A stretch of 64,000 nt of DNA from Eledone cirrhosa (lineage: Eukaryota), in contig OZ024740.1 of assembly GCA_964016885.1 (NCBI GenBank), positions 347,634,001-347,698,000 on the forward strand, read 5' to 3'. Below the pieces are notes generated by a model. It ran no database searches and was not told where the DNA came from. It worked only from the letters and a program-made list of their open reading frames with translations. The position numbers were made by a program, and so were the translations under genes. How positions within the stretch are numbered: the first letter of the stretch is position 1; each line of letters starts with the position of its first letter. Positions 32,291 to 38,558 of the stretch are shown in pieces.

Positions 32291-33213
32291 CCTAACGCCT
32301 GAGCTCTTGCTGTTTAAGACTGAACTGGAATTAGGTGTTGAAACGGCAAGAGCTCCGCCGTTGGGTCCCGACACTTTACAATGTAATCATAAACTACTAC
32401 ACTAAGTAGCGAGTAATCTGTTAAGTAATGGTCTAACCAGTTTCATATTGGATCCAACCTGATATCTATCTATCTATCTATTTATCTATCTATCTATATC
32501 TAACTATATATAATATATATATGTTATATATATGTAGATATACATACATATATATATATATATATATATATATATATATATATATATATATATATAAATA
32601 TATATATATATATATATATATATATATATATATATATATATATATATATATATATATATAAATATATACATATACATATATATAAATATATATATATATA
32701 TTATATACATATACATATATATATATATATATATATATATATATATACATACATATATATATATATATATATATATATATATATATATATATATATATAT
32801 ATATATATATATATATATATATATAGGTGTCTTACGGTATTCGTGGGGTTTACGTTCTTGGAGCACCCAGAAAGAATGAAAAACAGCGAATATTGGACGC
32901 GGTCCATAAAATGCCTATAAACATCACAATATAACGTATAATTAAAATGAATGTGGTGGCGTCTTATGCAAAGGGGCGGCCAATAGACCGGTATATTGTT
33001 ATTAATAATTGAGCGGTAAAATATATATATATTGCCACGAAAATAAACATTAAAAAATTGCGGATGATATTTATGGCTCCACGAAAAACCGGGACCGCGA
33101 TTGCCAGATGTACGCAGTATATATATATGTAGATATTATATACACACACACACACACATATATATATAATTTTATATATATATATATATATATATATATA
33201 TATATATATATAT

Positions 33214-34220
33214 AAGAGGGTGTTAAAGTTTGCTTGAAGCATTGTGAAATGTGTAAAATACGTATTTAAGAAAGCCACAACAATGCAGAGGGAAATCTCG
33301 AGGTAGGAAGTGAAAGATAGATAGGAAAAACAGGTGAAAGTGAAAATTGAGAGAGACAAAGATGAAAACAAAACAAAGGTAGAAGGGTTACCGTAGTAGA
33401 GATTTAATCCCAATATTTCGGGCTCACGCCCATCAACGGGGGAAAGTTCCAAAAGGGGGGGAACAGGCCAAGCGGAGAAAGTTGTGATGTCGTTAAGACA
33501 GGAATGCCGTTATGGGGAGAAAATTATTTAAAATTTAAACGAGGGAAAGAATGCGCGTGCGCGTGATAGGCTGTGGCAAAAGCTACTGACCAAATGGGTT
33601 AAATCAAGAGGGTGCGCTAGCGTGTGAAAGCCGTAAGATATGTGTGTGTAAATATATATGTGTGTGTAACTGTGTGTGTATAAGTGTAAGTGTGTATATG
33701 TGTGAGTGTGTGTGTGAAAGATAGTGGGCTGTAGAAGCTGGAAATCAAAGGGTGTGAAAGGTGGTAGGTTGTAAAACATGTGTGCGTGTATAAATATAGA
33801 TGTGTGTGTGTAAGCGTATGGGTATACATGTGTGTGTAACTGTGTGTGTATATGTGTGAGTGCGTTTGCGTGTGAAAGATAGTGGGCTGTAGAAGCTGGA
33901 AATCAAAGGGTGTGAAAGGTGGTAGGTTGTAAAAATATGTGTGCGTGTATAAATATAGATGTGTGTGTGTATGCGTATGGGTATGCATAAACGTGCGTGT
34001 GTGTGAAGATAGCAGGCCGTAGGCTGTGAATGGTCATTATGGTTAAGTTAGCCATGTCAGCTCATTTCTCTCAGCCCGGTTGTTAAGTGGGGTCTGAGGT
34101 TCTTAATAACAAGTGCTTCCTTTATCCTTAAGGATCCGATGCTGCGTTCAGTCGCTAGGACTGTGACCAAGGGTCTACCCTGTGGGTTTCCGCATTTAAG
34201 GATGTGTTTACGGAAGGAAT
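33214..34220 (-). mobile_element. Penelope-like 3' fragment with a degenerate hammerhead
   Basis: The minus strand encodes a GIY-YIG C-terminus (..KHILKC..LRIKEALVIKNLRPHL). At 33409-33442 the minus strand reads CCGTTGA-tGGGC-GTGA-GCCC-GAAA. Inserted into a (TA)n tract. Confidence 0.75.
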
Positions 34221-34398
34221 ATATATATATATATTACTTTGATTATTTTACTATCTAACTGTCATGAAATAGTAAATTAATAGTTACTTTTATATTTTTC
34301 AAAAATATTTATTTTGTATGTGTGTGAGTGTTTGTAGTCGCTTGTGTGTGACCATGGGCATGTAATCATGTTACCGTTTGTTGCTTTTTTTATTACAG

Positions 34399-37400: not shown

Positions 37401-37700
37401 GCACATTGAATGCGCTCAGGCGCTCACAGTCCTCTGGCAAGCGGGCGCAGCAATCAGTGGAGACTCCACTTCGACATTCTATAGAGGGATTGTACGTTAC
37501 AAGGGCGACGACGTGCTCGGAGAGACTCTGGGCGTCGAAGACGGGGTATTAAACAACCCATTTGTGGCGCCTCCCCCCTATTGGGGATTTCGATTGTTAA
37601 AATTGTTTGTTTTTATATTTTTTACACGACTGTATGTAAAATCCCCGGCATGTCTTTGTATTGTCCCCTTTCTTGTTGCGCCCTTGTGGCTAATAAAGAA
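34484..37700 (+). mobile_element. L1/Tx1-like LINE: end of ORF1, open ORF2 (APE+RT) with an internal 3' deletion, and 3' UTR
   Basis: ORF from 34669 with GTVNVR, VYAP, GDWN, SDH, WKLN, SPGLDG, QGCPLS and YADD. Homology to 30812-32148 stops near 37545 and jumps to the 3' UTR. AATAAA at 37692. Confidence 0.93.
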
Positions 37701-38558
37701 ATCTATCTATTTATCTATCTATATCTATCTATATATAATATATATATGTTATATATATGTAGATATACATATATATATATATATATATATATATATATAT
37801 ATATATATATATATATATATATATATATATATATATAGGTGTCTTACGGTATTCGTGGGGTTTACGTTCTTGGAGCACCCAGAAAGAATGAAAAACAGCG
37901 AATATTGGACGCGGTCCATAAAATGCCTATAAACATCACAATATAACGTATAATTAATATGAATGTGGTGGCGTCTTATGCAAAGGGACGGCCAATAGAC
38001 CGGTATATTGTTATTAATAATTGAGCGGTAAAATATATATATATTGCCACGAAAATAAACATTAAAAAATTGCGGAGGATATTTATGGCTCCACGAAAAA
38101 CCGGGACCGCGATTGCCAGATGTACGCAGTTTATATATATGTATATATTATATACACACACACACACACACACACACACACACATATATATAGTTATATA
38201 TATATATATATATATATATATATATATATATATATATATATATATATATATATATATATATATATATATATATATATATATATATATATATATATATATA
38301 TATATATATATTACTTTGATTATTTTACTATCTAACTGTCATGAAATAGTAATTTAATAGTTACTTTTCTATTTTTCAAAAATATTTATTTTGTATGTGT
38401 GAGTGTTTGTGGTCGCTTGTGTGTGACCATGGGCATGTAATCATGTTACCGTTTGTTGCTTTTTTTATTACAGTGGCAGAACACCGACGAATGTAGTAAA
38501 GAAACATGATGGTCGTTGCTAGATGTAAGGCCTGCCAATATCTGTGAACACTTTCGAA
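37701..38558 (+). repeat. Downstream copy of the ~860-bp duplication
   Basis: Begins at (ATCT)n directly after the LINE tail. It ends at ctttcgaa, the same point at which the LINE 5' end joins the upstream copy. Confidence 0.9.
38474..38522 (+). CDS. Kazal gene 1, exon 3, downstream copy with intact 3' UTR
   Basis: Coding sequence identical to 34399-34447. Completes a 72-aa protein with 6 Cys. Confidence 0.9.

What the first reader, a model, noticed from the sequence alone, without database searches (positions are those of the whole stretch)
32464..38558. Terminal coding exon duplicated on both sides of a LINE: an ~860-bp TSD-like duplication
Seen: the Tx1-like LINE (34484-37700) is flanked by direct copies of the same ~860 bp (32464-34483 minus a later insert, and 37701-38558). 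The copied segment includes the acceptor and all of exon 3. The LINE tail joins at an (ATCT)n tract and its 5' end joins 36 nt after the stop codon. The two copies differ at a few non-coding sites, and gene 2 has only one copy. Known: LINE TSDs are normally about 5-20 bp. Inference: widely staggered nicks during target-primed reverse transcription, or repair synthesis, duplicated an exon. The insertion therefore left an intact 3' end downstream, which is an unusual route to exon duplication.
Basis: partly seen in the sequence, partly recalled or inferred. Interest (0 to 1): 0.7.

Follow-up and report, generated by a model that had tools for sequence, protein, structure and literature searches.

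The report
LINE insertion scar duplicated last exon
In an octopus-like genome, a broken jumping gene (LINE) sits between two copies of about 860 bases that hold the last coding exon of a small predicted protease-inhibitor gene; the copy was likely made as an unusually long insertion scar, a rare but known outcome also seen at four other copies of the same element, and the predicted protein is unchanged.

Summary
The duplication is real. A 5'-truncated L1/Tx1-type LINE (34482-37701) is flanked by copy 1 (about 32473-34483, interrupted by a younger Penelope-like piece) and copy 2 (37702-38558, 857 bp). Both hold the acceptor, coding part and 36 nt of UTR of exon 3 of a Kazal-domain gene, but not its poly(A) signals. 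The repeat starts at the family's (ATCT)n target and ends at the 5' junction (2-bp microhomology). Two close paralogues upstream carry one copy and none of this LINE. Copy divergence (8 substitutions) fits the LINE's age (6.2 expected). Of 94 other copies of the family, 4 carry 102-570-bp duplications (4 of 61 truncated, 0 of 33 full-length). Best reading: a long target-site duplication (0.82). It is a new example of a known kind (human L1 duplicating CDKL5 exon 3; a 1228-bp ZfL2-2 duplication), and this scan noted similar cases in other genomes. Both exon copies encode the same peptide, so any effect would be on RNA 3' ends; untested. No long reads or empty allele were available.

The parts
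16325..16361 (+). Gene 1 first coding exon (predicted signal-peptide-like, phase-1 donor)
   Evidence: Read from sequence printed; the same exon precedes gene 2 at about 52960
26170..26302 (+). Gene 1 exon 2, Kazal domain, phase-2 donor
   Evidence: Translation; Pfam PF00050 E 8.6e-10; splice sites
32473..34483 (+). Copy 1 of the duplicated target (5' edge inside an (ATCT)n tract)
33215..34219 (-). Younger insert in copy 1: 3' piece of a Penelope-like element in a (TA)n tract
   Evidence: First 426 bp 100% identical to copies on other chromosomes; flanks; neighbouring ORF of a longer copy shows RT and GIY-YIG-like motifs, read by eye
34399..34447 (+). Exon 3 coding part, copy 1 (acceptor AG 34397-98, stop 34445-47); no native poly(A) signal behind it
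34482..37701 (+). 5'-truncated L1/Tx1-type LINE; starts near the end of ORF1 with 2-bp microhomology (34482-83)
34624..34629 (+). Consensus splice donor inside the LINE, 176 nt after the copy-1 stop codon
   Evidence: Only match to the donor pattern between the two exon copies; use untested
34669..37543 (+). ORF2 (APE-type endonuclease + reverse transcriptase), open but lacking its C-terminal part
37540..37543 (+). Joint of a 648-bp internal deletion with 4-bp microhomology, seen in no other copy among the 30 loci
37702..38558 (+). Copy 2 of the duplicated target (857 bp), continuous with the native downstream flank
38474..38522 (+). Exon 3 coding part, copy 2, identical to copy 1
38572..38590 (+). 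Two AATAAA signals of the native 3' UTR, outside the duplication
59775..60535 (+). Gene 2 equivalent: single copy, no LINE (about 88-90% identical)

Best explanation
The two copies are likely one unusually long target-site duplication, made when this LINE inserted by target-primed reverse transcription. Shown: the repeat begins exactly where the LINE tail ends, at the (ATCT)n site this family prefers, and ends exactly at the truncated 5' junction with 2 bp of microhomology; close paralogues have one copy and no such LINE. Inferred: the endonuclease nicked the bottom strand in the (ATCT)n tract of intron 2, the cDNA stopped near the end of ORF1 and annealed to a top-strand end about 0.8-0.86 kb downstream (a distant second nick, or unwinding/repair synthesis from the free end), and gap filling copied the interval. 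A Penelope-like piece later inserted into copy 1. Consequence, inferred: the gene keeps an intact last exon (copy 2); transcripts using copy 1 would encode the same peptide but end in the LINE's own AATAAA or splice from the LINE donor at 34624 to copy 2.
For: Junction geometry. Empty paralogous sites at -71 kb (L003) and -173 kb (L004) and gene 2, each with a single copy. Copies 1 and 2 share derived states against both paralogues (T at 32948, shorter T run at the acceptor, a compound microsatellite) and no site in the alignment groups either copy with a paralogue. Age: LINE differs from its family's majority letter at 18 of 3224 sites (0.56%), predicting 6.2 substitutions between the copies; 8 seen, P(>=8)=0.29. 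The insert in copy 1 is younger. Family precedent: 102, 257, 304 and about 570 bp duplications (99-100% identical) at 4 of 94 other copies; none of the four matched another copy's flank in a swap control of 8742 pairs. Published precedent: passages of PMC5223499, PMC2666801, PMC8087252, bioRxiv 10.1101/2024.12.14.628481.
Against: Copies 1 and 2 are about as far from each other (8 substitutions) as from the L003 paralogue (about 7 and 9), so they could have been alleles or paralogues joined later. The first 1.8 kb of the LINE gave 0.73% and the whole 0.56%: the clock is loose. The orthologous empty allele was not seen; only paralogues. The about-570-bp case (L102) carries a nested insert in its tail and is less clean. 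The survey took top BLAST hits, not a random sample, and 45 of 94 copies lie in (ATCT)n on both sides, where short TSD length cannot be read.
Confidence: 0.82

Rival explanations
1. The LINE first inserted with a normal short TSD; later a template switch or deletion joined an empty allele or tandem paralogue (at 34483) to the inside of the LINE on the other copy, removing the LINE's 5' part and leaving two copies of the interval.
For: The gene lies in a tandem array with repeated segmental duplications (10 exon-3 matches over 270 kb; map). Copy 1-copy 2 divergence is similar to their divergence from the nearest paralogue. A 2-bp microhomology fits end joining as well as TPRT.
Against: Needs two events within 0.9 kb and within a short time (LINE age matches copy divergence). 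No paralogue in the 264 kb mapped carries this LINE family at the tract. The same geometry occurs at 4 other copies, two of them outside any array and one (L166) in unique-looking DNA.
Confidence: 0.12
2. Assembly artefact: two haplotypes merged into a false tandem duplication.
For: 1.4% divergence between copies is in the range that alleles could show (own knowledge); no long read or bridging contig was obtained.
Against: The window has no N. A merge needs an overlap, and the exon-3/LINE junction shares only 2 bp; a haplotype with a short-TSD insertion would not contain that junction. The same structure recurs at four other loci on three other chromosomes-scale contigs.
Confidence: 0.04
3. 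The repeats belong to the element (LTR-like ends) or copy 2 is a 3' transduction.
For: Long direct repeats flank an RT-coding unit.
Against: None of 94 other copies carries these repeats; the sequence is single-copy host intron/exon at paralogues; copy 2 runs on into the native flank without a second tail.
Confidence: 0.01

Closest known systems
De novo L1 insertion in human CDKL5 with a 119-bp TSD duplicating exon 3 (PMC8087252; passages read)
   Same: 5'-truncated LINE, long TSD that copies an exon with its acceptor
   Different: There: internal exon, frameshift, de novo and pathogenic, 119 bp, chimeric L1. Here: last coding exon, same peptide, about 0.8-0.86 kb, in a reference assembly and old enough for 8 substitutions and a later insertion; L1/Tx1-type element of an octopod
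Large TSDs of L1 in cultured cells (PMC5223499; passages read)
   Same: TSDs over 100 bp occur in up to 10% of inserts in HeLa; the paper proposes a distant second nick and notes exons could be duplicated. Here 4 of 94 other copies (95% CI 1-11%)
   Different: Cell-culture events; majority only in NER-deficient cells. Nothing here tests NER
ZfL2-2 insert with a 1228-bp L-TSD in wild-type DT40 cells (PMC2666801; passages read); 1-10 kb tandem duplications at L1 junctions regarded as large TSDs (bioRxiv 10.1101/2024.12.14.628481; passages read)
   Same: Kilobase-scale duplication bounded by the two LINE junctions; target truncations and blunt joins occur alongside
   Different: Somatic or experimental; other LINE clades
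Microsatellite-targeting Tx1-clade elements Kibi (TC)n and Koshi (TTC)n (PMC4494074; passages read)
   Same: APE-type endonuclease LINE with strong microsatellite preference
   Different: Target here is (ATCT)n, with CAATAT-like sites as second choice; no tree with named Tx1 elements was built

Membership tests
TPRT insertion with long TSD | Repeat starts at the 3' tail, at the family's target sequence | tested here: met
   Tail joins TCTATC at 37702; 64 of 95 copies examined, this one included, begin their 3' flank with TCTATC and 22 with TCAATA
TPRT insertion with long TSD | Repeat ends at the 5' junction | tested here: met
   Junction at 34482-83 with 2-bp microhomology
TPRT insertion with long TSD | Empty site has one copy | tested here: met
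   Met at paralogues L003, L004 and gene 2; not at the orthologous allele
TPRT insertion with long TSD | Orthologous empty allele or long reads | not testable with these tools
   Only short contigs and RAD reads were offered
TPRT insertion with long TSD | Copies as old as the insertion | tested here: met
   8 observed vs 6.2 expected substitutions; low power
Tx1 clade (L1 superfamily) | ORF2 with APE-type endonuclease and RT, closest to L1 ORF2p | tested here: met
   PF03372 and PF00078; L1 ORF2p E 5e-51 vs R2 8e-20
Tx1 clade (L1 superfamily) | Target preference (same target in over 20% of flanks, criterion of PMC4494074) | tested here: met
   45 of 94 copies have (ATCT)n on both sides
Tx1 clade (L1 superfamily) | ORF1 with CCHC zinc knuckle (feature recalled, not from a call) | tested here: inconclusive
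   A CX2CX4HX4C motif is visible in ORF1 of full-length copy L071; Pfam gave no family
Tx1 clade (L1 superfamily) | RT groups with named Tx1 elements in a tree | not tested
   No named Tx1 reference among the 120 listed homologues
Kazal-type inhibitor gene | Kazal domain | tested here: met
   PF00050 E 8.6e-10 above the curated cut-off for exon 2; expression and activity untested
LTR element or 3' transduction | Repeats travel with the element | tested here: not met
   Absent from 94 other copies; host sequence at paralogues

The most novel reading that the evidence does not exclude
This (ATCT)n-targeting family finishes truncated insertions with a loosely placed second strand (about 7% long duplications, about 30% no duplication), so across its thousands of copies it is a routine inherited source of 0.1-1 kb tandem duplications in octopod genomes; at this gene the duplicated acceptor plus the LINE's own splice donor forms a stop-containing cassette exon that tunes the dose of one Kazal inhibitor through nonsense-mediated decay or an alternative 3' end.
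Probability: 0.15. Interest if true: 0.55.

Novelty: new member of a known kind. Interest (0 to 1): 0.3.

Why it matters
It is an unusually long, inherited example of a LINE insertion scar with paralogous empty sites and an internal clock, and the family survey gives a germline rate for long TSDs (4 of 61 truncated copies) close to the cell-culture figure. It shows how a LINE can land in a gene's last intron and leave a complete last exon behind it. It adds no protein sequence, and the mechanism is already described, so the value is as a worked natural case.

Tried and rejected
Reads: no RNA holder listed. Laying contigs on 34240-37760 was swamped by LINE copies. On 34300-34535, contigs of one sample (X1, X2) run from exon 3 into the copy-2/empty continuation, and none of the 16 pieces shown (98 not shown) bridges into the LINE; contigs drop rare branches, so this shows nothing either way. 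One X1 contig carries copy 1's private A at 34336. RAD reads X10 and X12 stop at about 34456. The majority LINE letters in those runs differ from this genome's family at several sites, so the runs may be another population or species. Survey rows set aside: 5 of 99 copies without a callable 3' end; L081 and L133 rejected as long TSDs because their upstream ends are 3' ends of a sister LINE family that also match other copies' flanks; L094, L100, L109, L146, L159 lie in tandem arrays, so long matches there were not counted. For the 18 truncated copies without a TSD, a further 9-10 kb upstream held no direct copy of the 3' flank: no hidden multi-kilobase duplications. The excess of long TSDs in truncated copies (4 of 61 vs 0 of 33) is not significant (Fisher P=0.29). 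The 648-bp deletion does not have GT-AG ends, so it is not a spliced intron. Literature searches listed no paper on long TSDs in cephalopod LINEs; PMC13282606 has no occurrence of 'target site' in its main text; supplements were not read, and subscription papers (e.g. Gilbert 2002, Symer 2002) were seen only as cited.

Full report
Setting. The window is G000:C1:347634001-347698000 of a 3.0-Gb animal assembly, without N. The closest named homologue of the LINE's ORF2 is from Argonauta hians, so the host is likely an octopod. Gene 1 has three coding exons: 16325-16361, 26170-26302 and exon 3; exon 2 matches Pfam Kazal_1. It belongs to a tandem array with 10 exon-3 matches over about 270 kb.

Observation. 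Copy 1 (about 32473-34483) and copy 2 (37702-38558, 857 bp) flank the LINE. About 600 bp are non-microsatellite. The copies differ by 8 substitutions in about 557 alignable bases and one 2-bp indel, none coding. Copied are the acceptor, the 49-nt coding part and 36 nt of UTR; the native AATAAA signals (38572, 38585) lie outside. Copy 1 holds a 1-kb insert (33215-34219) whose first 426 bp are identical to copies elsewhere and which is the 3' piece of a Penelope-like element on the minus strand (motifs read by eye). It is therefore younger than the duplication.

The LINE. ORF2 has endonuclease and RT domains and is closest to L1 ORF2p among solved structures. Full-length copies are about 5.8 kb. 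This copy is 5'-truncated near the end of ORF1 and joins the host through AA shared by both sides. It lacks 648 bp of the ORF2 end and 3' UTR, joined through a 4-bp microhomology. The family is abundant (1058-2977 first-look candidates per probe) and young, and prefers (ATCT)n: 64 of 95 copies are followed by TCTATC, 22 by TCAATA. Tx1 membership is likely but no tree was built.

Empty sites. Two paralogues 98% identical at exon 3, at -71 kb (L003) and -173 kb (L004), and gene 2 each have one copy and no element of this family at the site. L003 has the (ATCT)n tract in the same place, 795 bp from the junction equivalent. Copies 1 and 2 share derived states against both paralogues and no site conflicts. 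Against the simple picture: the two copies are as distant from each other (8) as from L003 (about 7 and 9), so the event closely followed the segmental duplication, or the copies were alleles or paralogues joined later.

Clock. The LINE differs from the family's majority letter at 13 of 1789 sites in its first part and 18 of 3224 overall. The latter predicts 6.2 substitutions between the copies; 8 are seen (P(>=8)=0.29). Insertion and duplication can be one event; the test has little power.

Family survey. I fetched 99 other copies taken from the top hits of three probes (fetched); 94 had both ends callable (61 truncated, 33 full-length). Result: 4 long duplications (L090 102 bp, 100%; L174 257 bp, 100%; L166 304 bp, 99.0%; L102 about 570 bp, 99.3%, with a nested insert in the tail), 25 short readable TSDs (8-23 bp, median 16), 45 with (ATCT)n on both sides, 19 with none found, 1 complex. 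All four long cases are truncated copies (4 of 61; 95% CI 2-16%; not significant against 0 of 33). In a swap control over 8742 pairs none of the four matched a foreign flank, whereas L081 and L133 did and were rejected. The 18 truncated copies without TSD showed no duplication within a further 9-10 kb. So long TSDs are a minority outcome of this family, and the case in the window is the longest found.

Mechanism. Shown: geometry, target, microhomology, empty paralogues, order of events. Inferred: first nick in the (ATCT)n tract, premature end of the cDNA, capture by a top-strand end about 0.8-0.86 kb downstream, fill-in. A distant second nick (proposed in PMC5223499) and break-induced synthesis (proposed in bioRxiv 10.1101/2024.12.14.628481) both fit and cannot be separated here.

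Consequence. Both exon copies give the same peptide. Copy 1 has no native poly(A) signal; the first AATAAA behind it is the LINE's (37692; weaker ATTAAA at 34484 and 37548), and the LINE carries a consensus donor at 34624, 176 nt after the stop. Predicted products: skip to copy 2 (normal mRNA); copy 1 plus a 3.2-kb LINE UTR; or copy 1 spliced to copy 2, which would be a decay substrate by the exon-junction rule (own knowledge). None is tested.

What is known. Passages read: PMC5223499 (TSDs over 100 bp in at most 10% of HeLa inserts, most inserts in NER-deficient cells; exon duplication foreseen), PMC2666801 (1228-bp TSD in 1 of 25 wild-type inserts), PMC8087252 (119-bp TSD duplicating CDKL5 exon 3), bioRxiv 10.1101/2024.12.14.628481 (1-10 kb duplications as large TSDs), PMC4245944 (classes of target alterations, microhomology at truncated 5' ends), PMC12350158 (median TSD 21 bp in human polymorphic insertions), PMC4494074 (Kibi, Koshi), PMC13282606 (L1-Tx1 families recently active in Octopus vulgaris). 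Earlier notes of this scan describe 158-438-bp cases in other genomes, two with an exon, and a (GATA)n-targeting family in this genome; these are unchecked AI notes.

Verdict. Real; a new, long, well-documented member of a known kind; no change to the protein. Interest 0.3.

Noticed in passing
L071-L109, L125-L184 (G000, several contigs): The family targets (ATCT)n and CAATAT-like sites and often stacks in the tails of its own or sister-family copies; 18 of 61 truncated copies show no TSD.
   Followed up: partly
window 34624-34629: Consensus splice donor in the LINE at the ORF1/ORF2 boundary, sense to the Kazal gene.
   Followed up: partly
window 30059-30277 (-) and 30773-32150 (+): Two pieces of a second Tx1-like family with (ATT)n tails in the same intron; the + piece is shared with the paralogues at -71 and -173 kb.
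   Followed up: no
L195-L197, about -98 to -71 kb from the window start: The nearest paralogue (L003) gave no exon-2 hit although flanking intron pieces are there; it may have lost exon 2.
   Followed up: no
L186, about -189 to -177 kb: Stack of three related Tx1-like elements (71-75% to this LINE) in intron 2 of the L004 paralogue.
   Followed up: no
window 60490-60500: Gene 2 exon 3 has a 1-base difference at the position of gene 1's stop codon that moves the stop one codon further.
   Followed up: no
window 32168-32294; L003 1-690: A 37-bp minisatellite upstream of the target has 3.4 units here and many more in the paralogue.
   Followed up: no
L016-L019 (G000:C1:430.29 Mb): Four near-identical 3' ends of this LINE at regular spacing inside a repeat containing telomere-like TTAGGG words.
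   Followed up: no
window 57100-58400 and 58390-59772: Inverted and tandem repeat clusters (442-bp unit, 3.2 copies) in gene 2 intron 2.
   Followed up: no
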